Shown piece by piece: positions 6,625-28,920 of a DNA stretch of 64,000 nucleotides. The DNA is taken from positions 449,332 to 513,331 of the forward strand of contig JAHJTE010000001.1 of assembly GCA_018830005.1 (NCBI GenBank), read 5' to 3'. How positions within the stretch are numbered: the stretch's first letter is position 1; every line of letters begins with the position of its first letter. Position numbers and translations under genes: made by a program. Source of the DNA: Candidatus Omnitrophota bacterium. Lineage in GTDB: Bacteria; Omnitrophota; Gorgyraeia; JAHJTE01. The notes beneath the pieces are model-generated. The model worked only from the letters and a program-made list of their open reading frames with translations. It did no database searches and was not told where the DNA came from.

Positions 6625-6827
6625 AAAAATGACTGGACAAAACGGACATGGCTCGACGCATTCGTTTCGCCCTTCGAAGAAGCTCAGGGTTTGCTTCATT
6701 TGCTCACCATGAGTGAGGAATCACCTCTCTGAAGTCAAAATATTCTTGATATAACAAGGTATTGCGGATATAATTGCCATTGTGAATTAAGAGAGGTTTC
6801 CCCTCGGCTAATATGAGAGCGACCCCA
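6625..6827 (+). repeat. intergenic repeat-family copy D
   Basis: It contains gactggacaaaacggac, ttgctcaccatgagtGAGGaatcaCCTCtct, a promoter (TTGATA 6746-6751, TATAAT 6769-6774) and the leader gagaggtttcccctcggctaatatgagagcgacccc. Confidence 0.7.
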
Positions 6828-7256: not shown

Positions 7257-7284
7257 AAACAAGTTCGCCGAAGCATTCATTGGT

Positions 7285-7328
7285 CGTTAAGAGAGGTTTC
7301 CCCTCGGCTAATATGAGAGGGACCCCAG
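7285..7328 (+). repeat. intergenic repeat-family copy E (3' leader module only)
   Basis: The sequence gagaggtttcccctcggctaatatgagagggacccc lacks the upstream promoter part. Confidence 0.55.
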
Positions 7329-7399: not shown

Positions 7400-7665
7400 T
7401 CTGTTGCTGTTTCAAAGAGTTAGGGCATTATATTTATTGGCACTATATCGAATTTTTCCACACCATAAGCTGTTTATAAAGCCTCTCTGAATATCGCCAC
7501 TTAATCGCCAAAATAGGCCAATTCCTCTCTTAGTTTATGGCAGCTAGTTTATGCTATATTGGTCAAGATATTGGATATAGATCGGGTTGAATATGGGCAT
7601 AAACTAGGAATTGAGAAGGCTCATTATGTGTTGCAAATATATCAAATTGGGATATAATTCCTTAT

Positions 7666-8988
7666 ATGGAGAATAATGGCTTAATCATAGCATTGACAGG
7701 GCGGTTTGGGGCTGGTTGTTCAACAACAGCTAATTTCTTTGCCAATAATAAGAAGCTGAATTGTAAAAGCTATAGCATCTCAGCATTTCTGAAAGACAAG
7801 GCAAAGAAAGAAATAGTCAATTTTGAACAAAAGAATCCCGAAGAAAGAAGAAAGATTCTGCAGGATTTGGGTGATAGTTTAAGAAAGGAAAAGCTAAGCG
7901 CTCTGGTAGATCCTATAATTAAAGACATTAAAGATAACAATGTAGAAAATGTGGTTATTGAATGCATCAGAAATCCAGGTGAGGTTACAGAATTAAGGCA
8001 TGCATTTGGTAATCGTTTTTTTCTCTTAGCCATAGACTCAGAGACAGAAACTCGTTGGAAGAGAGTCGAAAAGATGTATAAAGGAAATAGAGCAAACTTC
8101 GATATTAATGACCGACGAGATGCTGGTGAGGAGCAGCCGCCATTGCCTAATGGGCAAAATGTGAAAAAGTGCATTGAGCTAGCGGATATATTGATTAATA
8201 GCGAAGATAATTTTTATAAAGAAGATGAAACAAAAGACGAAGTAGTTATTGATCGCTACGGACAAAAACTATCCGATTATACTGAATTAATGTTAAACCC
8301 GGGTGCCAGACCACCATATCCGGATGAATTATATATGCATCATTCTTGTAGCGTGGCTTTATGGTCTAAATGTTCCAGGAGACAGGTAGGGGCTACTATA
8401 ATCCATGAGGTGTTGAATAAGAAACCTGATAAGCAAGATGTAAAAAATAAGAGCGATAGCGATAAAGAAATTATACTTGAAAGTTACGTCATTGCGACTG
8501 GTTGTAATAATGTACCATGGGGAGAGATTGATTGCAGAGTTTTGTACAAGAGTGAGTCGACTAAAAAAAGATGTCATAAAGAAAAGGTTAAGATTAAACA
8601 TTTTAGCAAGTACAAATATTGCAGGGAATGTGGGGCGGCATTGAACGATCGTACTTTAGTTTGTACCTGTGGAGTTGAAAATTCAAAATTACCCGGAAAG
8701 TTGTTGGATGTTTGTAGAGCTGTTCATGCGGAAGAGTCAGCTATACTCCAGGCAGCCAAGTTAGGAACCACCCCATTAAATGGGGCTAAGCTTTATACTT
8801 CTACTTTTCCTTGCATGCTTTGTTGTAAAAAGATTATTAACGCAGGTATCAAGAATTTAATATATTTAGAGTCTTACCCGATGGAAGAGTCATTAGCTAT
8901 TAGCATGTTTAGGAAGTGTAATGTCAAGATTTCTAAATACGAAGGTGTGAATTCAATTGTATTTAACAGGCTTTTTAAAAGAGAATAG
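7666..8988 (+). CDS. P-loop kinase-like domain fused to a zinc-dependent cytidine/dCMP deaminase domain; candidate anti-phage dCTP deaminase
   Basis: The N-terminus has a Walker-A-like LTGRFGAGCSTT. The middle has a zinc ribbon (CRECGAALNDRTLVCTCG). The C-terminus has the CDA signature HAEESAIL...PCMLCC. Confidence 0.75.
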   Translation: MENNGLIIALTGRFGAGCSTTANFFANNKKLNCKSYSISAFLKDKAKKEIVNFEQKNPEERRKILQDLGDSLRKEKLSALVDPIIKDIKDNNVENVVIECIRNPGEVTELRHAFGNRFFLLAIDSETETRWKRVEKMYKGNRANFDINDRRDAGEEQPPLPNGQNVKKCIELADILINSEDNFYKEDETKDEVVIDRYGQKLSDYTELMLNPGARPPYPDELYMHHSCSVALWSKCSRRQVGATIIHEVLNKKPDKQDVKNKSDSDKEIILESYVIATGCNNVPWGEIDCRVLYKSESTKKRCHKEKVKIKHFSKYKYCRECGAALNDRTLVCTCGVENSKLPGKLLDVCRAVHAEESAILQAAKLGTTPLNGAKLYTSTFPCMLCCKKIINAGIKNLIYLESYPMEESLAISMFRKCNVKISKYEGVNSIVFNRLFKRE

Positions 8989-9045
8989 CGATAAAGTTCT
9001 TGCATTGAGACAAAAAAGAATTATAATATAGTCAAAGAGATAAAT

Positions 9046-9234
9046 ATGAAAAGATGTCCTCAATGTAAAAGATTTGGCGTTGAGTATGATCCCCAGACAG
9101 GAAAAGAGAAATGTGTCTGGAGTGATTGCTTGTGGATTAATGAAACAGATATTGATTTAGATACTTATGATTACGGAGTAAATTTTGTAGAATTTAGGGA
9201 TTCTATAAATATCAAGCGAGAAATGGCAGTTTAA
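9046..9234 (+). CDS. small zinc-ribbon protein (CPQC...C..C)
   Basis: 62-aa ORF with a CxxC pair (CPQCKRFG...CVWSDC). It is followed by a bidirectional terminator. Confidence 0.4.
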   Translation: MKRCPQCKRFGVEYDPQTGKEKCVWSDCLWINETDIDLDTYDYGVNFVEFRDSINIKREMAV

Positions 9235-9251
9235 AATTAAATATTCTGACA

Positions 9252-9283
9252 AAAGCGATAGCCAAAAGCTATCGCTTTTTTTG
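9252..9283. terminator. bidirectional rho-independent terminator between convergent genes
   Basis: agcgatagc-caaaa-gctatcgct followed by TTTTTTT. It lies between the + strand 9046 gene and the - strand recombinase. Confidence 0.65.
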
Positions 9284-9287
9284 TTTT

Positions 9288-10898
9288 TTATAATGATAAA
9301 GCTATAAGTAAGTTTTTCCACATTTCGAGCTGTTTATTCCAATTTAACTCGAAGGCAATGTTGCGTAGCTTGTACTCGGGGATTAAGGAGATATTTTTGT
9401 TTTCTGAGCAGAGGATTTCTTCTTGTATAGTTGGCGCAAGCAGCAAAAGGTTCATCATTTGATTGAGCCGCTGGTGATTCAAGTTAAGCCATTTGGCAAC
9501 TTGCTTTAAGCCTTCAGCTTTTCCTTCAGCAAGGATGCCTTGGACTTGATGTGCCAAGATAAGATTCTGCCTTAATTGTGGCTCGTTCTTGATATTTATT
9601 TGATTAGGAGGGACTGGCAGGTTTTTGAGTTCCTTGAGTCCTACCTTATATTGGCGTCTCCTATTATCTTTTAGCAGAACGATTTCAAGTATCCCTTTAT
9701 TACCATCGAAACTTGCTTCTTTAAGGACTGTTTTAATGATTGCAATCTTTTCTTGAAGGCTAAAGGTATCCCATATTTTTTCGTCGAGTTTGGGTAGAGG
9801 AGTCAAGGTTCTGAGTAATTCGACGATTTTCTGTTCAATCTTCTGCGTGCTCAGTAAGCGGGTAGGACAGGTTTTGTAGCCACGCTTACTGGCGCTCATA
9901 CAAAGGTAGTAGTGATACCTGTATTTATTGGCTTTGATGTTGTAGGAGAAGTACATCGCGCAGTTGCAGGCTTTACAGCGCAGGAGGCCGGTAAGCAGAC
10001 CCACATGTTTAGTCTTCTTGGTCATTTTCCAGTCAGGCTTGTTTTTTGCAAGTATGCTTTGTGCTTTCTGGAAGGTTTTTTCCGAAATAATTGCTTCATG
10101 TTCTCCCGGATATAACTCGGCCTGGTATGAAACCTTGCCGGCGTAAAGCACATTTCTTAAGATTAGCTGAATACCGTTGATTGTAAACTGAATCCCACCG
10201 AATTTTCTGCCTTTTTCAGATGTATGCTGCTTAGTTGTACATCCCAGGTCATTCATAATCATGGTTACGGACAGAAGGGAGCGCTTTTCAATATACGAGG
10301 TGAAGATTTTACGCACGATCTTGGCTTCTTTCTGGTTAACCACGAGCTTATGCTTATCCTTATCGATGTTATAGCCTAAAGATGGCCTTCCTCCGATCCA
10401 TTTGCCTTTTCTCTTAGCAGCGCCCATCTTGTCGCGGGTGCGTTCTGAGATAATCTCGCGCTCAAACTGCGCAAAAGAGAGGAGGATATTAAGCGTAAGC
10501 CTGCCCATCGAGTTTTGCGTATTAAAGTGCTGTGTTACTGATACGAAGGTGGCACCATGTTTTTCAAATACAGACAGGAGCTCTGCAAAATCAAGAAGTG
10601 AGCGCGATAAGCGGTCAACCTTATAGACTACTACGCAATTAATTTTATTGGCTTTGATGTCAGTAAGAAGCCTCTGAAGTGCAGGTCTGTCTGTATTGGC
10701 TCCGGTGAAGCCACCGTCATCGTAGTATTCTGGCGAAGCTACCCAGCCTTCGTTTTTCTGGCTGGTGATGTAGCTTTCGCAGGACTCGCGTTGGGCATCC
10801 AGAGTAGTAAAGTCGCGCTCAAGTCCATCGCTGACCGATTTGCGCGTATAAATGGCGCAATTAATAATCTTTTTTTCTTCGGGTTCTGTAGTTTTCAT
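9288..10898 (-). CDS. large serine recombinase (resolvase/invertase N-domain, recombinase domain and zinc ribbon)
   Basis: The N-terminus has the catalytic Ser region (AIYTRKSVSDGLERDFTTLDAQRE) and VVVYKVDRLSRSL. Further along are YRYHYYLC...CP and a coiled-coil. The start overlaps the stop of the upstream DUF2924 gene (ATGA). Confidence 0.9.
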   Translation of the reverse strand: MKTTEPEEKKIINCAIYTRKSVSDGLERDFTTLDAQRESCESYITSQKNEGWVASPEYYDDGGFTGANTDRPALQRLLTDIKANKINCVVVYKVDRLSRSLLDFAELLSVFEKHGATFVSVTQHFNTQNSMGRLTLNILLSFAQFEREIISERTRDKMGAAKRKGKWIGGRPSLGYNIDKDKHKLVVNQKEAKIVRKIFTSYIEKRSLLSVTMIMNDLGCTTKQHTSEKGRKFGGIQFTINGIQLILRNVLYAGKVSYQAELYPGEHEAIISEKTFQKAQSILAKNKPDWKMTKKTKHVGLLTGLLRCKACNCAMYFSYNIKANKYRYHYYLCMSASKRGYKTCPTRLLSTQKIEQKIVELLRTLTPLPKLDEKIWDTFSLQEKIAIIKTVLKEASFDGNKGILEIVLLKDNRRRQYKVGLKELKNLPVPPNQINIKNEPQLRQNLILAHQVQGILAEGKAEGLKQVAKWLNLNHQRLNQMMNLLLLAPTIQEEILCSENKNISLIPEYKLRNIAFELNWNKQLEMWKNLLIALSL

Positions 10899-11365
10899 AG
10901 GTTAAAAAAGTTATATCCGTTCCAATGCACTCCGGTTATTTCTTCAGCTATGGTGGTAAGATGCTTATATATTTTCCCGTTATATTCAAAGCCATTATCA
11001 AGTACCTTGACTTGGATATTTTTGCCTTTATATTTCTTGATGATGACACTTCCTGGGATAGGGAGACGTCTGTCCCTTCCGCAACTTTTCTTTCTTGCCT
11101 GCGTTTCTAGGCTTATCTTCGGTCTAATTGACTTATTATTGACAGGATCATAAAGCTTTATAAGTTCTCTAAGCCTATTTTCCGCTTTTTGCGATAAGCC
11201 GCCATATTTAAGCTCCTGCAGGCGGTAGGCAATCTTTCTTATTAGGTAGATTTTATTGTCTGAAGTCGCCTTTTGGCCATTAAATAGCGTCACAAATTCC
11301 TTCTGGAGCTCCGGAATCGCCTTATTTTTCAGGGCTATAATTTTGGCTTCTAATGTCTCTTTCAT
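10895..11365 (-). CDS. DUF2924-family protein (recombinase-associated)
   Basis: The C-terminus carries the DUF2924 signature (...KYKGKNIQVKVLDNGFEYNGKIYKHLTTIAEEITGVHWNGYNFF). It is translationally coupled to the serine recombinase. Confidence 0.7.
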   Translation of the reverse strand: MKETLEAKIIALKNKAIPELQKEFVTLFNGQKATSDNKIYLIRKIAYRLQELKYGGLSQKAENRLRELIKLYDPVNNKSIRPKISLETQARKKSCGRDRRLPIPGSVIIKKYKGKNIQVKVLDNGFEYNGKIYKHLTTIAEEITGVHWNGYNFFNL

Positions 11366-11631
11366 TGGCGCATTTTCCTCAGGTCACATAGGGCCATACA
11401 ATTCGAGATAAGTCAAGGGGATTAGAGAGGTATTTCATTCAGAAGGACAAGCCTTGCGATTTTTGCTAAAAGTGTTAAAATGGAGACAATATGAAAGAAC
11501 TTGACAAGAGTGGAATTTGGGAGTATAAAAGAAATATAGACGATGAGTGGTATGTTTCGAAGGGGGAACTGCCACGTAAAAATAATTAAAACCTTCGCCA
11601 AAAGCGGAGGTTTTTGTATTTATGGGTATAG

Positions 11632-12051
11632 ATGGACAGAATTTCAAAAGAAACGCGTAGTCAGAATATGGCCGCCATTAAAGGAACAGACACTACTCCT
11701 GAAATGGCTGTAAGAAGAATGCTTTATTCTTTAGGGTATAGATATAGGTTGCATAAAAAGGATCTTCCGGGTAAGCCCGATATTTTTATAAGGAATCGTA
11801 ATGCTGCAATATTTGTGAATGGCTGTTTTTGGCACCAACATCCGAATTGCAGATTTGCAACTAAACCGAAAAGCAACAGAAGATTCTGGATGAAGAAATT
11901 AAAGAAAAACATAAAGCGTGACGAAGAAAATCTTATGAGACTCAAAAAGTTGGGCTATAAGATTATCTCCATATGGGAGTGTGAAATCGGCAAACAGTCA
12001 GTCAGTTTGAATCAGAGGCTCGTGAAGAGATTAGCAAGATCATTAGGGTAA
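11632..12051 (+). CDS. vsr: very-short-patch repair endonuclease
   Basis: SQNMAAIKGTDTTPE...FVNGCFWHQHPNC...WECE matches Vsr motifs. It sits immediately upstream of the C5-methyltransferases. Confidence 0.9.
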   Translation: MDRISKETRSQNMAAIKGTDTTPEMAVRRMLYSLGYRYRLHKKDLPGKPDIFIRNRNAAIFVNGCFWHQHPNCRFATKPKSNRRFWMKKLKKNIKRDEENLMRLKKLGYKIISIWECEIGKQSVSLNQRLVKRLARSLG

Positions 12052-12056
12052 AAATT

Positions 12057-13121
12057 ATGGGTAAAGCCGGTTTTAATGTGGTCGATTTGTTCTGCGGATG
12101 CGGCGGTCTGTCGCTCGGGTTTATAGAAGCCGGATATAAGGTAATCCTGGGAGTTGACAATGATTCGGCAGCTCTGGAGACCTTTAAAGCCAATCATAAT
12201 GGAGCTGAGGCGTGCAATATAGATCTTTCCGATAATTCTTTTTTGAAAAAGATGTACAGGGCTGTAAAGGATGAGAAAATTGATGTAATAATAGCAGGTC
12301 CGCCGTGTCAGGGTTTTTCTCTTACCGGACCACGTAATTTCGATGATAAGAGAAATGTTCTTTATCTGGCGGTTATTACCGCAGTAAAAAAAATAAAACC
12401 GAAAGCGTTTCTTATTGAGAACGTGCCCGGACTGGCAGCTCTTTACGGCGGTCAGGTTAAGGATGAGATTATCAGGCGTCTTAAAGAAGTGGGATACAAT
12501 GTAACAATGGATATTCTTTGTGCCGCAGATTACGGCGTGCCGCAGTTGCGGAAGCGGGTCTTCTTTGGGGGACTGGAAAAGAGTCTGGGACAGTTTGAAT
12601 TTCCTTCAAAAACGCATTCACCGGATAATTATGTTACCTGTGCCGATGCTATCAGTGATCTGCCGGGCAGAGAAAGCGAACTGGGAGAAGAGGAGGATGA
12701 TTACGAAAGCTCTCCGCTTACTTCCTATCAGAGAAAACTGCGCAGCAACTGCAGGAAATTATATAATCACATAGCTACAAACCACACTGAAATTGTAAAG
12801 AGTGTTATTAAGCTTGTTCCGGAGGGCGGAGATTACAGGGATCTCCCGAAAGGAGTTGGCGAGCACAGACAGTTTAATGAAGCATGGACCCGTTATCACG
12901 GCAGTAGGCCTTCATATACAATTGACACCGGTCATCGCAACCACTTTCATTACAGACATAACAGGGTTCCCACCATAAGAGAGAATGCACGATTACAGTC
13001 TTTTTCCGATTCTTTTATTTTCTACGGGACTAAAACACAGCAAAACAGGCAGGTGGGTAACGCTGTGCCGCCTTTATTGGGATATCATTTGGCCAGGCAG
13101 ATTCTTCGCTATATAAAGTAG
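12057..13121 (+). CDS. DNA (cytosine-5)-methyltransferase
   Basis: Motif I FCGCGGLSLGF, motif IV GPPCQGFS, motif VI ENV (FLIENVPGL), and a C-terminal QxRxGNAV. Confidence 0.92.
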   Translation: MGKAGFNVVDLFCGCGGLSLGFIEAGYKVILGVDNDSAALETFKANHNGAEACNIDLSDNSFLKKMYRAVKDEKIDVIIAGPPCQGFSLTGPRNFDDKRNVLYLAVITAVKKIKPKAFLIENVPGLAALYGGQVKDEIIRRLKEVGYNVTMDILCAADYGVPQLRKRVFFGGLEKSLGQFEFPSKTHSPDNYVTCADAISDLPGRESELGEEEDDYESSPLTSYQRKLRSNCRKLYNHIATNHTEIVKSVIKLVPEGGDYRDLPKGVGEHRQFNEAWTRYHGSRPSYTIDTGHRNHFHYRHNRVPTIRENARLQSFSDSFIFYGTKTQQNRQVGNAVPPLLGYHLARQILRYIK

Positions 13122-13129
13122 GAGTATCT

Positions 13130-14395
13130 ATGGAAAAGTACAGATTTATAGATCTTTTTGCAGGATGCGGCGGTCTCTGCGACGGGTTTGAACAGACCGG
13201 ACTGTTTGAGCATGTTGCCTCCGTAGAATGGGAAAAAGCCCCGCGGGACACGCTTGTCAAACGCCTGAGGGATAAATGGGGCTATGCAGATGCCGAATAT
13301 CGTGCAGTCCGTTTTGATATTCAGCGGACAGGCGAGTTATTTAAAGGATGGGCAGATGATCCTGTTTATGGAAGCAGTATCGGACTGGATAATATTATTT
13401 CGAAAAGCGGACATATAGATCTGATTATAGGCGGTCCTCCATGTCAGGCATATTCTGTAGCAGGCAGGATTCGGGACGAACACGGTATGCAGAATGACTA
13501 CAGGAATTATCTTTTTGAATGTTATCTGAAAGCTGTCGACAGATACAGGCCGAAAGTATTTGTTTTTGAAAATGTCGAAGGAATATTAAGTGCACGTCCC
13601 AATGGAATAGCTATAATTGAGAAAATCAGGCATGCATTTTCAGATCACGGTTATGAACTGATTTCCGATCTGCGCGGAAAAGCGGTGATTGATCTGTCGC
13701 ATTTTGGTATACCTCAGCGGCGAACAAGGGTAATACTGGTAGGATTGAGAAAACAGACATTCGGAAGAGCATGCCAGGCAGCTTTAGCCGATTTTTATGA
13801 TAATATTCTGCAGGCATACCGGTCGCCGACCGTGGCGACTGTCAGGAAAGCCATAGGTGATCTGGATGCTCTTTATCCGACTCCAAAAGATTGTCGCATC
13901 GGCGGAAAAATGTTTTCGCATAAACCAGAAAGTTCCGGAATATCCAACCATACTCCCCGTTATCATAACAGAAGAGACATAGGGATTTTTGGAGATCTTG
14001 CAGGCGACATTGAGTCAGGAAGAAACCGGTACGCAGGCATAATAGAACTGCAGAAGCTTTATACTGAAAGAACAGGAAAAACTTCCAATGTGCACAAATA
14101 CTATGTATTGAGGTGGGCTCAGCCTAGCAACACAATTCCCGCCCATCTTTACAAAGACGGTTTGCGTCATATTCATCCGGATCCGAAACAGGCACGATCC
14201 ATTACTGTAAGAGAAGCAGCCCGTCTTCAGGCATTTGATGATGATTTTGAATTTATCGGCAGCATGGGGGATCAGTATAAAATGATCGGCAATGCGGTGC
14301 CGCCTTTATTCGCCAAAATTCTTGCCGAAGCAATATATGATTTTATTAGAGATTTGCAGGTCTCCGGAAGGAGGAAAGCATGTCGAAGGAAATAA
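13130..14395 (+). CDS. DNA (cytosine-5)-methyltransferase (second, paralogous)
   Basis: FAGCGGLCDGF, GGPPCQAYS, FVFENVEG, GNAVPP. Confidence 0.92.
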   Translation: MEKYRFIDLFAGCGGLCDGFEQTGLFEHVASVEWEKAPRDTLVKRLRDKWGYADAEYRAVRFDIQRTGELFKGWADDPVYGSSIGLDNIISKSGHIDLIIGGPPCQAYSVAGRIRDEHGMQNDYRNYLFECYLKAVDRYRPKVFVFENVEGILSARPNGIAIIEKIRHAFSDHGYELISDLRGKAVIDLSHFGIPQRRTRVILVGLRKQTFGRACQAALADFYDNILQAYRSPTVATVRKAIGDLDALYPTPKDCRIGGKMFSHKPESSGISNHTPRYHNRRDIGIFGDLAGDIESGRNRYAGIIELQKLYTERTGKTSNVHKYYVLRWAQPSNTIPAHLYKDGLRHIHPDPKQARSITVREAARLQAFDDDFEFIGSMGDQYKMIGNAVPPLFAKILAEAIYDFIRDLQVSGRRKACRRK

Positions 14396-15384
14396 TTTAT
14401 GCCCGAAAGCTGTATGATCAGGAATTAGGTTATAGGAAGGGGCAGCCTAAAAAAGCAGGGAGATATTTTTTTATATCGAAAGAATGTATAGCCTACTTTC
14501 CGCCATTAAGCACGCTGATAAAAAACGATCATATACTGATAAAAATCATTCCTCCTGATTCGCAGAAAATCGTTCTGAGTAATTATGTATATCATAATGA
14601 CAAAATCACTGATAATAAGTCGCACGGAAGAGATGAATACAGATTGTACTTAAACAGTGAGACTGATACGGAAAGGAACTTTTTTAAGCCGGGAGATATT
14701 GCAGTGCTCTATAGGTATGCCGTTGAAAATGAATCCATATATAAAATTTTCTATTTTCCGGTTTCGCAGAAAGATAATCATTATAAAAGGCTTGAAGCAA
14801 TGATAGAGGAGAGCAGGATTAAAGGCGGGCACGCCTTAATTGAAGCCTCGAAAATTCCTTTTATCAGACTGCCAAGCCGTATTGATTTGGAAGATAGGGT
14901 AATTCCAAAGGAAGTAATGGAAGATGTGCTGAGCGAACCTCTGGAACCCCTGCCTGCCGAAGTCATGGAAAACGAGTTTCTGTTTACACGTACTATACGA
15001 GAGAACAACTTCAGGGAACTGCTGCTGTTTTTTTATGATTATCGGTGTGCTGTTACCGGATCAGCAATGAGATATAAAAATCTGATTAACCTTCAGGCAG
15101 CGCATATAATACCTGATGAGCATGGCGGACCTCCGCATCCCAAAAACGGACTCCCCCTGTCCAGAGATTTACATTGGGCTTTTGACATCGGTTTTTTCAC
15201 AGTAGACGATCAATACGAAATAAACGTTCATGAAAAAGTTAAAGATATTCAGATAATGCGGGAGATAAATAACAGAAAGATAATATTGCCTCAGGATAAT
15301 CGGGCCTGGCCCAGTATCCATTCACTTAAATGGCATAGAGATAATGTATTTGGTATTTTTACGTCTAAAACACTGGAACCGTAA
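14380..15384 (+). CDS. HNH-family endonuclease; putative restriction endonuclease of the adjacent R-M module
   Basis: C-terminal HNH motif YRCAVTGS...AAHIIPDEHGG...NGLPLSRDLHWAFD. It overlaps the methyltransferase stop by 16 nt. Confidence 0.7.
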   Translation: MSKEIIYARKLYDQELGYRKGQPKKAGRYFFISKECIAYFPPLSTLIKNDHILIKIIPPDSQKIVLSNYVYHNDKITDNKSHGRDEYRLYLNSETDTERNFFKPGDIAVLYRYAVENESIYKIFYFPVSQKDNHYKRLEAMIEESRIKGGHALIEASKIPFIRLPSRIDLEDRVIPKEVMEDVLSEPLEPLPAEVMENEFLFTRTIRENNFRELLLFFYDYRCAVTGSAMRYKNLINLQAAHIIPDEHGGPPHPKNGLPLSRDLHWAFDIGFFTVDDQYEINVHEKVKDIQIMREINNRKIILPQDNRAWPSIHSLKWHRDNVFGIFTSKTLEP

Positions 15385-27949: not shown

Positions 27950-28488
27950 TCTTCTATCCTTATAGTCTTCGGAATGTTCGCTTTTTGTATAGAGGATAGC
28001 CTGCTATTTTTTCTTTATAACCAGTTGAGCGAATTTTGTTTCTGAAGATGTTGGGAAAAGATATAATTGCTTTTATGAATAAGGAGAGGAATTTCCTCGC
28101 GAAACGTTAGAAGGACCCCATTTACCGATTTTATGATATAATTTTAGCCAGATGAAAATTAAGGGTGTCGTCATGCGGGATGGGCCAAGATAAAAGGAGA
28201 TACGTTGGCAAGAGATAATTATTCATATAAAAAGTATCAGAAAGAATTGGCCAGGAAAAAGAAGGCAGAGGAAAAGAAACAAAGAAAACTGGATAAAAAA
28301 GCGATGGAGGCCACGCCTGAGTCTGGACAGGTTCCCAATGACCAGGTCGCCTTAGAATAAAGAAATACTTGTAATCTTTTTTAAAAGTCCTATAATCATA
28401 ACTCAAGGCTAAATCTTTAGCAGAAATAAAAGACACCCCGCGCTTATTGGAATTGCGCGGGCGTTGTCCTTGTAGACAAGGAGGAAAC

Positions 28489-28650: not shown

Positions 28651-28920
28651 AAGAAGATATTTTGTTAGTCTCTTGTTTCTAGTAGATCCGCAAAGGTAAT
28701 GTTTTAAATCATTTTGTGGCGGTTCTTGCAATAATTTTAGACTTATTTCTCTTACAATTAATGCCTCTAGAAATCAGCGAGGAATTCCTTCTCTGGTGCT
28801 CAAAACTCCTAGATATAGTAGGATATTATGTCTAAAATACAACCAGGCAAACAAGAGAGTTTTTCCCTCGGCCCATACGAAAGGGGCCCTTAAGATATTT
28901 GGAATTACTAAAGGACGAAA

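What the first reader, a model, noticed from the sequence alone, without database searches (positions are those of the whole stretch)
7666..8988. Kinase-deaminase fusion resembling anti-phage dCTP deaminases, with a Lys-to-Cys Walker A
The protein has an N-terminal P-loop nucleotide-kinase-like domain, a central Cys4 zinc ribbon, and a C-terminal zinc cytidine/dCMP deaminase domain (HAE…PCxxC). This is the domain order reported for defense dCTP deaminases that deplete dCTP on phage infection. 

The Walker A here reads GRFGAGCSTT, with Cys where the catalytic Lys normally sits, implying the kinase-like domain is a sensor or binding domain rather than a phosphotransferase. The gene lies inside a defense island beside a serine recombinase.
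Basis: partly seen in the sequence, partly recalled or inferred. Interest (0 to 1): 0.6.

Follow-up and report, generated by a model that had tools for sequence, protein, structure and literature searches.

The report
Anti-phage deaminase with zinc-ribbon partner gene
This gene is a compact relative of the bacterial enzymes that starve phages of the DNA building block dCTP; its odd Cys-for-Lys nucleotide-binding loop is already present in the enzyme on which that defence was proven, but it is always followed by a tiny, undescribed zinc-ribbon gene that probably controls it.

Summary
ORF 7666-8988(+) encodes a 440-aa fusion of a P-loop NMP-kinase-like domain (Walker A GRFGAGCS) and a zinc dCMP-deaminase-type domain (HAE, PCxxC). 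It sits in a defence island beside a large serine recombinase.

Corrections:
- The Cys4 ribbon is an insertion inside the deaminase fold, not a central domain. Validated enzymes lack it.
- The Lys-to-Cys Walker A is not new. E. coli AW1.7 dCTP deaminase reads GRTGSGC30T, and G29A/C30A abolished defence (Tal et al.). Every long family member lacks the Lys.
- The protein belongs to a sister subfamily. It scores 228 bits on NCBIfam NF041025 (cutoff 400; AW1.7 449) against 72 bits on ComEB.

New here: the 62-aa ORF at 9046-9234 (invariant CxxC...C...C) is a conserved downstream partner. It directly follows the deaminase in more than 30 loci from many phyla, often overlapping its stop codon. The family has 638 representative clusters, no Pfam family and no literature.

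The closest relatives are likewise cargo next to serine recombinases.

Best reading: a mobile two-gene dC-nucleotide-depletion defence module. The ribbon protein is the regulator, possibly a protein counterpart of the AvcI RNA antitoxin; that role is inferred, not shown.

The parts
7631..7658 (+). Promoter-like site TTGCAA-16 nt-TATAAT. It ends 7 nt before the ATG at 7666, so the mRNA may be leaderless or have a very short leader.
   Evidence: 10 of 12 consensus matches. This is a consensus match only, and the total number of sites in the region is not above the shuffled expectation.
7666..8988 (+). Gene for the 440-aa kinase-like/deaminase fusion, a compact Cys-type relative of anti-phage dCTP deaminases. 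NCBI MBU2540742.1, annotated 'hypothetical protein'.
7666..8295 (+). N-terminal P-loop NMP-kinase-like domain (residues ~1-210). Residues invariant across both clades: G12, G17, Q66, G69, R73, E106, R130, R133, D152, G163, Q164.
   Evidence: invariant columns. (Foldseek 3lw7 TM 0.85, rmsd 2.8). (AAA_18, weak).
7699..7722 (+). Walker A-like loop G12-RFGAG-C18-S19. Cys18 (7717-7719) sits where the canonical Lys would be.
   Evidence: The same G-C is found in E. coli AW1.7.
8170..8172 (+). Cys169 in the motif NVKKCIELADI. Conserved in the Cys-type clade and identical in AW1.7 (NVKKCIEISDI).
8308..8985 (+). C-terminal zinc dCMP-deaminase-type domain (residues ~215-440). HAE is at nt 8725-8733 and PCxxC at nt 8809-8823.
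8371..8715 (+). Span holding the four residues of an inferred second (structural) metal site: C236 (8371-8373), C290 (8533-8535), C303 (8572-8574), C350 (8713-8715).
   Evidence: C236/C290/C303 are near-universal. In one subclade all three switch together to D/D/D, with G at position 350. The metal site itself is inferred.
8620..8670 (+). Cys4 zinc-ribbon insert (C319, C322, C333, C335) inside the deaminase fold.
   Evidence: pLDDT ~84-87. Present in 73 of 117 Cys-type homologues and absent from AW1.7.
9005..9032 (+). Promoter-like site TTGAGA-16 nt-TATAGT in the 57-nt spacer between the two genes.
   Evidence: Consensus match only.
9046..9234 (+). Gene for the conserved 62-aa zinc-ribbon partner. 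C4, C7, C23 and C28 are invariant and the C-terminal tail is variable. NCBI MBU2540743.1, 'hypothetical protein'.
9251..9279 (+). Hairpin plus T-run terminator that closes the two-gene unit. It also lies just past the end of the convergent recombinase gene.
   Evidence: 12-bp stem, 5 G-C pairs, T-rich tail.
9288..10898 (-). Large serine recombinase (Resolvase + Recombinase + Zn_ribbon_recom), convergent with the pair.
   Evidence: The same layout is seen in L096.
10895..11365 (-). DUF2924 protein, the usual companion of this type of recombinase.
11632..15384 (+). Neighbouring type II restriction-modification cluster: Vsr, two C5 cytosine methyltransferases, HNH endonuclease.
15919..22949 (+). 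Neighbouring Druantia-like cluster: an unknown 743-aa ORF followed by a DruE-like helicase split over two ORFs (18141-20198 and 20214-22949).
   Evidence: DruE1 E 1.9e-85 and 8e-108.

Best explanation
Window 7660-9280 is a two-gene accessory module. It is carried at the edge of an integrative element that is mobilised by a large serine recombinase.

Gene 1 is a compact member of the AvcD / anti-phage dCTP deaminase superfamily. It has a Lys-less (Cys-type) P-loop NMP-kinase-like domain that still keeps the conserved Arg/Gln/Asp pocket. This is fused to an intact zinc dCMP-deaminase-type catalytic domain that carries an extra structural metal site and a Cys4 ribbon insert. By homology it deaminates deoxycytidine nucleotides (dCTP and/or dCMP to dU nucleotides). 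That empties the dCTP pool and stalls phage DNA replication.

Gene 2 is a 62-aa zinc-ribbon protein with a disordered tail. It is the deaminase's cognate partner. My preferred mechanism is that it is a labile protein inhibitor (antitoxin) that takes the place of the upstream AvcI/DifV RNA antitoxin of the Vibrio/E. coli systems. When phage shuts off host gene expression, the inhibitor is lost and the deaminase is released.

Shown here: the homology, the intact catalytic motifs, the operon-like linkage and its conservation, and the mobile/defence context.
Inferred: the substrate, the defence role of this particular subfamily, a physical interaction between the two proteins, and the inhibitory sign of the partner.
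For: Family identity:
- PADLOC dCTPase E 1.4e-81.
- NF041025 aligns over 6-439 at 227.6 bits against ComEB 71.9.
- 28% identity over 382 aa to the validated AW1.7 enzyme, plus the shared P-loop LTGRxGxGC[ST]TTAN and NVKKCIE motif.
- N-domain invariants are shared by both clades.
- Catalytic H354/E356/C383/C386 are intact.

Function of the family:
- dCTP depletion on infection, with both kinase-motif and deaminase mutants dead (Tal et al.).
- AvcD is held by a labile RNA antitoxin that is lost on transcription shut-off.

Partner linkage:
- An iterated profile over all six-frame ORFs of 81 loci hit 26 ORFs. All lie directly 3' of the deaminase on the same strand, at offsets -79 to +127 nt. Further examples are in L091-L099.
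- Reciprocal sampling: 5 of 7 partner homologues lie directly after such a deaminase.
- Four Cys are invariant.
- The two proteins co-diverge overall: r = 0.69, 0 of 5000 permutations reach it.
- A hairpin terminator follows the pair.

Antitoxin-like hints:
- In L086 versus L087 a 1069-bp deletion removed the deaminase but kept the partner.
- The partner has a structured ribbon plus a low-confidence tail.
- Phage-like contigs carry the same ribbon fused to a MazG-like domain.

Mobile/defence context:
- The window island.
- L096 has the identical layout, and L093, L095 and L097 have serine recombinases.
- L085 lies beside Wadjet JetABC.
- An AAA_15/AAA_21/DUF3696 ATPase lies near L097.
Against: - No member of this compact, partner-bearing subfamily has been tested experimentally, as far as the held literature shows.
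- It fails the NCBIfam equivalog cutoff: 228-260 bits against 400.
- Neighbourhoods of the deeper relatives are heterogeneous and largely metabolic: 149 Pfam families in 113 flanking genes, none seen more than 3 times.
- The 80%-identical homologue L001 lies directly after a class II ribonucleotide reductase.
- A partner homologue sits in a Nanoarchaeota NrdR-ribbon-RNR-dCMP deaminase operon.
- About a third of Cys-type loci lack a recognisable ribbon partner.
- Nothing tested here shows binding or inhibition. The partner lies downstream, whereas most protein antitoxins lie upstream.
- No deaminase-partner fusion was found.
Confidence: 0.6

Rival explanations
1. Housekeeping or metabolic enzyme. 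The fusion is a regulated dCMP deaminase that balances dNTP pools (dCMP to dUMP for dTTP synthesis). The Lys-less kinase-like domain acts as an allosteric nucleotide-binding module, and the ribbon protein is a metabolic regulator linked to ribonucleotide reductase.
For: - L001 (80% identical) lies directly downstream of a class II RNR.
- A partner homologue lies in the Nanoarchaeota operon NrdR-ribbon-RNR-dCMP deaminase.
- Short forms that retain Lys score equally on ComEB and NF041025.
- Two of 113 flanking genes are DCD-like dCTP deaminases.
- Many deeper loci have ordinary metabolic neighbours.
Against: - The query scores 227.6 bits on the anti-phage model against 71.9 on ComEB, whose cutoff is 219.
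- It shares the P-loop and other motifs with the validated defence enzyme.
- In the window and its closest relatives the pair is cargo next to serine recombinases, excisionase-like HTH genes, phage lysis genes and defence systems.
- There is presence/absence variation between near-identical contigs.
- The distribution is patchy across very distant phyla.
Confidence: 0.15
2. The module is a defence system, but the ribbon protein is a positive factor. It would be a phage sensor, an activator or an assembly subunit of the deaminase, rather than an inhibitor.
For: - It sits downstream and is often translationally coupled, as expected for a stoichiometric subunit.
- It is found with stand-alone deaminase domains (L087) and is fused to another dNTP-acting domain (MazG-like) in phage-like contigs. 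That suggests a general module that docks onto nucleotide enzymes or their targets.
- Zinc ribbons commonly bind nucleic acids or proteins; the best fold match is a TFIIB-type ribbon (not significant).
Against: - L086 keeps the partner after the deaminase was deleted. That is easier to explain for an antitoxin than for an activator.
- The characterised relatives are controlled by an inhibitor (AvcI), not an activator.
- AW1.7 works as a single gene without any such partner.
Confidence: 0.2
3. The deaminase edits or mutates nucleic acid (phage DNA or RNA), like APOBEC or polymorphic-toxin deaminases, rather than acting on free nucleotides.
For: Secondary Pfam hits to MafB19-like and XOO_2897-like toxin deaminases (E 1.2e-08 and 0.033). 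The extra zinc ribbons could bind nucleic acid.
Against: - The best sequence and fold matches are all dCMP deaminases, including the bifunctional dCMP/dCTP deaminase of PBCV-1.
Confidence: 0.04

Closest known systems
E. coli AW1.7 anti-phage dCTP deaminase (WP_045268677.1; Tal et al., bioRxiv 10.1101/2021.04.26.441389)
   Same: - N-terminal kinase-like plus C-terminal zinc deaminase.
- The same Cys-type Walker A (LTGRTGSGC30TTTAN against LTGRFGAGC18STTAN) and the same NVKKCIE motif.
- HAEE and PCxLC catalytic motifs.
- 28% identity over 382 aa.
- Carried on an integrase-bearing island.
   Different: - AW1.7 is 576 aa, with a ~150-aa insertion in the N domain.
- It has no Cys4 ribbon insert, Thr instead of C350, and no downstream zinc-ribbon ORF.
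- It passes NF041025 (449 bits), while the window protein does not (228 bits).
AvcD-AvcI (DcdV-DifV) type III toxin-antitoxin defence of Vibrio cholerae and E. coli (Hsueh et al., 10.1101/2021.03.31.437871; PMC10511110)
   Same: - Same two-domain enzyme superfamily and a Lys-less Walker A (the S52K construct).
- A two-component logic: a toxic deaminase plus a small adjacent regulator.
- The E. coli plasmid members have a small upstream ORF/RNA locus.
   Different: - There the regulator is an untranslated RNA encoded upstream.
- Here no conserved or structured upstream element is found (L001 has only 92 nt upstream). Instead there is a conserved downstream protein with four invariant Cys.
- The Walker position is Thr/Ser/Val/Ile in that clade and Cys here.
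Housekeeping and viral dCMP deaminases (ComEB TIGR02571; S. mutans 2hvw, T4 1vq2, cyanophage S-TIM5 4p9e, PBCV-1 bi-DCD 7fh4)
   Same: Fold and catalytic zinc site of the C-terminal domain (TM 0.77-0.85). A second zinc site in the same region is a known feature of dCMP deaminases (established knowledge, not tested here).
   Different: These enzymes have no kinase-like domain and no ribbon insert. The ComEB score is 71.9 bits against a cutoff of 219.
AdkA-like / UPF0200 NMP-kinase-fold proteins (SSO1041, 3lw7/3h0k) and dephospho-CoA kinases
   Same: Fold of the N-terminal domain (TM 0.85, rmsd 2.8 A). The P-loop glycines and LID/NMP-site arginines are kept.
   Different: The Walker A Lys is replaced by Cys, so canonical phosphotransfer is doubtful. 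The domain is fused to a deaminase.
Toxin-first type II TA pairs with a zinc-binding antitoxin, such as MqsR-MqsA (comparison from general knowledge, not tested)
   Same: The toxin gene comes first, and a small downstream gene product begins with a Cys4 zinc-binding module.
   Different: No sequence or significant fold similarity was detected. The partner has no recognisable DNA-binding domain.

Membership tests
Anti-phage dCTP deaminase (NCBIfam NF041025 / PADLOC dCTPase) | A single polypeptide with an N-terminal P-loop kinase-like domain followed by a C-terminal zinc cytidine/dCMP deaminase domain | tested here: met
   NF041025 aligns over residues 6-439 to profile positions 2-432 of 437.
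Anti-phage dCTP deaminase (NCBIfam NF041025 / PADLOC dCTPase) | Intact catalytic H-A-E and P-C-x-x-C zinc site | tested here: met
   H354-A-E356 and P382-C383-x-x-C386. Invariant in the alignment.
Anti-phage dCTP deaminase (NCBIfam NF041025 / PADLOC dCTPase) | Non-canonical Walker A without Lys, required for defence in AW1.7 (G29/C30) | tested here: met
   GRFGAGC18S here. AW1.7 reads GRTGSGC30T, with the mutant phenotype.
Anti-phage dCTP deaminase (NCBIfam NF041025 / PADLOC dCTPase) | Score at or above the curated equivalog cutoff (400 bits) | tested here: not met
   227.6 bits. Validated or named members score 449-499, and the whole partner-bearing clade scores 228-260.
Anti-phage dCTP deaminase (NCBIfam NF041025 / PADLOC dCTPase) | Match to the PADLOC dCTPase model | tested here: met
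   E 1.4e-81, 273 bits, two stretches. No curated cutoff is given for this library.
Anti-phage dCTP deaminase (NCBIfam NF041025 / PADLOC dCTPase) | Location in defence islands or mobile elements, with sparse phyletic distribution | tested here: met
   The window island. Closest relatives lie beside serine recombinases, Wadjet and an AAA_15/AAA_21/DUF3696 ATPase. Deeper relatives are heterogeneous, so this is met for the window and its near relatives only.
Anti-phage dCTP deaminase (NCBIfam NF041025 / PADLOC dCTPase) | Depletion of dCTP and protection on phage infection | not testable with these tools
   Requires expression, LC-MS of dNTP pools and plaque assays.
AvcID (DcdV-DifV) type III toxin-antitoxin system | A small untranslated RNA antitoxin encoded immediately 5' of the deaminase gene | tested here: inconclusive
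   No Rfam hit. The upstream 271 nt fold no better than shuffles, z = +1.25. No conservation with the upstream regions of relatives, and L001 has only 92 nt upstream. Known AvcI RNAs are themselves not conserved in sequence, so absence cannot be proven.
Housekeeping dCMP deaminase ComEB (TIGR02571) | Score above the curated cutoff (219.45 bits) and a stand-alone architecture of ~150 aa | tested here: not met
   71.9 bits, C-terminal part only. The protein is 440 aa with an extra N-terminal domain.
P-loop nucleotide/nucleoside monophosphate kinases | Walker A GxxxxGK[ST] with the catalytic Lys | tested here: not met
   Cys18 replaces Lys. Lys is kept only in six short relatives of 333-371 aa.
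Protein (type II-like) toxin-antitoxin pair | Two adjacent co-oriented genes, tightly spaced or overlapping, and inherited together | tested here: met
   Offsets of -80 to +126 nt in 27 pairs. Overall co-divergence r = 0.69, 0 of 5000 permutations reach it.
Protein (type II-like) toxin-antitoxin pair | The antitoxin binds and neutralises the toxin and is more labile than it | not testable with these tools
   Only indirect hints: the partner is retained after the deaminase is deleted, and it has a disordered tail.

The most novel reading that the evidence does not exclude
The small zinc-ribbon protein is a new class of protein antitoxin or regulator for nucleotide-depleting deaminases. It would be a protein replacement for the AvcI RNA, making this a previously unrecognised two-gene defence system that is widespread in uncultivated phyla. 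The same ribbon fused to MazG-like domains in phages would then be a hijacked copy used as a counter-defence that docks onto the deaminase.
Probability: 0.3. Interest if true: 0.65.

Novelty: new variant of a known kind. Interest (0 to 1): 0.45.

Why it matters

What does matter is that current annotation tools treat anti-phage dCTP deaminase as a single-gene system, or in Vibrio as a pair with an RNA antitoxin. NCBI leaves this whole compact subfamily and its partner as 'hypothetical protein'.

A conserved, translationally linked zinc-ribbon protein defines a distinct two-gene variant. It is spread across Omnitrophota, Bacillota, Chloroflexota, Planctomycetota, Nitrospirota, CPR and other phyla.

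If the ribbon protein is the switch, it offers a protein-based answer to how these enzymes are kept silent and then triggered. That question is open for AW1.7-type enzymes.

It also gives a handle for annotating hundreds of orphan small ORFs: 638 representative clusters.

Tried and rejected
1. **C18 and C169 as an obligate disulfide or metal pair.** Rejected as obligate. C169 also occurs with Lys18 (5 cases) and Ser18 (6 cases), and a few Cys18 proteins have A/T/S at position 169. The 3D distance could not be measured because model coordinates are not exposed.
2. **An AvcI/DifV-like upstream RNA.** No Rfam hit, no excess folding energy, and no conservation with relatives.
3. **Rosetta-stone fusion of deaminase and partner.** None among 200 deaminase homologues or the top 150 partner-family representatives. 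Only fusions to a MazG-like domain were found.
4. **Internal Cys4 insert as a captured copy of the partner ribbon.** Only weak generic CxxC matches, best domain E 0.003.
5. **Direct repeats D1/D2 at ~6.7 kb and ~25.4 kb as att sites of the island.** Rejected. There are five dispersed copies, and four follow a -10-like box, so this is more likely a promoter or leader motif.
6. **Partner fold search.** Only non-significant TFIIB-type ribbon matches. Pfam, PHROGs and PADLOC give nothing for the partner.
7. **Deep co-evolution of partner and deaminase.** No signal among distant pairs, rho 0.06. The ribbon is too short.
8. **Solved structure of any family member.** None in the PDB by sequence or fold.
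9. **Aggregate neighbourhood scan for defence enrichment.** Too heterogeneous and uncontrolled to give a statistic.
Full report
**1. What is in the sequence**

The ORF at 7666..8988 (+) is real and encodes 440 aa.
- Walker A-like loop G12-RFGAG-C18-S
- C319-x2-C322-x10-C333-x-C335
- H354-A-E356
- P382-C383-x-x-C386

Pfam places dCMP_cyt_deam_1 on residues 220-401 (E 7.8e-16). It gives only a weak AAA_18 match to residues 8-137.

An AlphaFold2 model built on 51 homologues is confident (pLDDT 89.7, pTM 0.87). Foldseek splits the model into two parts:
- an N-terminal NMP-kinase fold, best matched by the AdkA-like protein 3lw7 (TM 0.85, rmsd 2.8 A)
- a C-terminal dCMP-deaminase fold (2hvw, 4p9e, 1vq2, 7fh4; TM up to 0.85)

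No solved structure covers the fusion.

The Cys4 ribbon is not a central domain. It lies inside the Pfam deaminase envelope, between strand 269-280 and the HAE helix 355-366.

A second metal site is implied by C236/C290/C303/C350. The first three are near-universal, and in one subclade they switch together to Asp/Asp/Asp, with Gly at position 350.

The window comes from a Candidatus Omnitrophota MAG. There the protein (MBU2540742.1) is annotated only as 'hypothetical protein'.

**2. Which family**

- PADLOC's dCTPase model matches at E 1.4e-81.
- NCBIfam NF041025 'anti-phage dCTP deaminase' aligns end to end, but at 227.6 bits, below the curated cutoff of 400.
- ComEB scores only 71.9 bits.

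Calibration:

| Protein group | NF041025 score |
|---|---|
| Validated E. coli AW1.7 enzyme | 449 bits |
| Two E. coli plasmid enzymes | 483-499 bits |
| Six relatives from the window's clade | 228-260 bits |
| Short archaeal form that retains Lys | 141 bits (ComEB 136.5) |

So the protein is not a ComEB-type housekeeping enzyme. It belongs to a distinct sister subfamily of the named anti-phage enzymes.

Both clades share the same invariant residues in the N domain (G12, G17, Q66, G69, R73, E106, R130, R133, D152, G163, Q164) and in the deaminase domain. This argues for a conserved phosphate or nucleotide pocket despite the missing Lys.

**3. The Walker A cysteine**

In an alignment of 192 family members:
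- 117 have Cys at this position
- the others have T/S/A/V/I/L
- only six proteins, all 333-371 aa, keep Lys

[quoted passage not shown] I translated the construct sequence from their Table S5 and recovered the full gene from the AW1.7 genome. The loop reads LTGRTGSG29C30TTTAN, against LTGRFGAGC18STTAN in the window.

Hsueh et al. likewise mutated S52K in the Walker A of DcdV.

So loss of the Lys is a family trait, and the Cys is already present, and required, in the founding enzyme. It is not a novelty of this gene. 'Sensor rather than kinase' remains an untested inference. I also tested whether C18 and C169 form an obligate pair; they do not.

**4. The part that was missed: a conserved partner gene**

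Fifty-seven nucleotides after the deaminase stop lies a 62-aa ORF, 9046-9234 (+): MKRCPQCKRF...C...C. A strong hairpin terminator follows at 9251-9279.

*Adjacency.* tblastn and an iterated profile search over all six-frame ORFs of at least 30 aa in 81 genomic loci found 26 matches. Every one lies directly 3' of the deaminase gene on the same strand, at offsets from -79 to +127 nt, and many overlap the stop codon. There were no matches elsewhere. Further pairs appear in L091-L099.

*Phyla.* The loci span Omnitrophota, Chloroflexota, WOR-3, Elusimicrobiota, Bacillota, Patescibacteria, Nitrospirota, Planctomycetota and Armatimonadota.

*Conservation.* The only invariant columns are the four cysteines, and the C-terminal tail is free to vary. 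AlphaFold gives a ribbon (pLDDT ~80-87) and a poorly defined tail.

*Annotation status.*
- The family has no Pfam, PHROGs or PADLOC model.
- It has no significant fold match.
- It has 638 representative clusters at E <= 0.001, nearly all 45-90 aa.
- No paper in the library links a zinc ribbon to dCTP deaminases.

*Reciprocal sample.* Of seven partner homologues examined:
- five lie directly after a deaminase of this clade
- one lies in a Nanoarchaeota operon NrdR-ribbon-RNR-dCMP deaminase
- one is fused to a MazG-like domain on a phage-like contig; a second such fusion has the domains in the reverse order

*Distribution within the family.* The partner occurs with and without the internal ribbon insert and even with a stand-alone deaminase domain (L087). 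Its association is therefore with the deaminase domain. About a third of Cys-type loci lack it. A Planctomycetota subclade instead has a double ribbon inside the enzyme, followed by a basic Cys-less small ORF. AW1.7 has no such partner.

**5. Context**

In the window the pair is convergent with a large serine recombinase plus DUF2924. It is followed by:
- a Vsr / two C5-methylase / HNH restriction-modification cluster
- a Druantia-like cluster with DruE split in two
- a PDC-S01 candidate

The closest relatives repeat the theme:
- L096 has the identical order deaminase - 62-aa ORF - recombinase - DUF2924, with ~70% DNA identity in places, but different flanks.
- L095 lies between a large serine recombinase and phage lysis genes.
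- L093 and L097 have resolvases and excisionase-like HTH genes.
- L085 is next to Wadjet JetABC.
- Near-identical contigs L086 and L087 differ by a 1069-bp deletion that removes the deaminase but keeps the partner.

Deeper relatives have heterogeneous, often metabolic, neighbours. L001 follows a ribonucleotide reductase. This keeps a housekeeping reading alive at low probability.

**6. Mechanism**

By homology with the AW1.7 enzyme and with AvcD, gene 1 most likely deaminates dC nucleotides and depletes dCTP during infection. In the characterised AvcID system a labile upstream RNA holds the enzyme in check until phage shuts off transcription.

Here I find no upstream RNA candidate, but I do find a conserved downstream protein. 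I therefore propose that the ribbon protein is the cognate regulator. An inhibitor or antitoxin role is favoured for three reasons:
- the partner is retained after the deaminase is lost
- it has a disordered tail
- phages encode copies of the ribbon

An activator or sensor role is a serious alternative. None of this is shown directly.

**7. Verdict**

The family assignment and context are right. The 'special' Walker A is already known. The ribbon is misplaced. The protein fails the equivalog threshold. The partner was missed.
- The enzyme itself is a new subfamily member of a known kind. The conserved protein partner makes the locus a new variant of the known nucleotide-depletion defence.

Noticed in passing
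window 15919-22949: Druantia-like cluster. An unknown 743-aa ORF (no Pfam or PADLOC hit) is followed by a DruE-like helicase split into two ORFs, 18141-20198 and 20214-22949, which match the N and C parts of DruE1 at E 1.9e-85 and 8e-108. It could be a naturally split DruE or a frameshift.
   Followed up: partly
window 6778-6827, 7278-7327, 25494-25543, 28071-28120, 28842-28891: Dispersed ~50-nt motif AAGAGAGGTTTCCCCTCGG..ATGAGAGGGACCCCA. The 31-nt core is identical in the first two copies. Four of five copies lie ~17 nt after a GATATAAT box, so it is probably a recurrent promoter or 5' leader element. Together with repeat D2, two copies bracket the 18.7-kb defence cluster.
   Followed up: partly
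L086 versus L087 (ENA ERZ27241879 / ERZ27241875): Near-identical contigs differ by a 1069-bp indel. L087 has a stand-alone 181-aa deaminase domain of this clade plus the partner. L086 has lost the deaminase but keeps an intact partner gene.
   Followed up: yes
L090 4001-4417 (P0149); also P0157, P0235: The partner-type zinc ribbon is fused to a MazG-like domain that JGI names NTP pyrophosphatase, in both domain orders. L090 is phage-like, with a PAPS-reductase moron, a phage DNA methyltransferase and an HNH endonuclease.
   Followed up: partly
L088 3567-7232 (Nanoarchaeota GCA_964357655.1): Operon NrdR - partner-type ribbon protein (P0141) - class II ribonucleotide reductase - plain 148-aa dCMP deaminase. 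This puts the ribbon family in a dNTP-synthesis context, without the kinase-like fusion.
   Followed up: no
L022, L025, L026, L029, L033, L034: A mostly Planctomycetota subclade. The deaminase carries a double zinc ribbon in a 73-82 aa insert. It is followed, 12-24 nt after the stop, by a small basic ORF without cysteines instead of the ribbon partner.
   Followed up: no
L082 2405-3904 and L083 942-2525 (E. coli plasmids): Plasmid-borne anti-phage dCTP deaminases read GSGVKT / GSGIKS, so a Lys sits one residue after the canonical Walker position. Each is preceded by a ~60-codon 'hypothetical' ORF in the AvcI/DifV position.
   Followed up: no
window 11385-11435 versus L096 10756-10806: A 51-bp patch of 84% identity just upstream of the DUF2924 gene in two otherwise ~70%-identical elements. 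It may be a regulatory or recombination site of the serine-recombinase element.
   Followed up: no
window 7631-7666: The best promoter-like site (TTGCAA-16-TATAAT) ends only 7 nt before the deaminase ATG, and there is no Shine-Dalgarno sequence upstream. The mRNA may be leaderless.
   Followed up: no
window 11632-15384: Compact type II restriction-modification cluster with a Vsr mismatch endonuclease, two different C5 cytosine methyltransferases and an HNH endonuclease.
   Followed up: no
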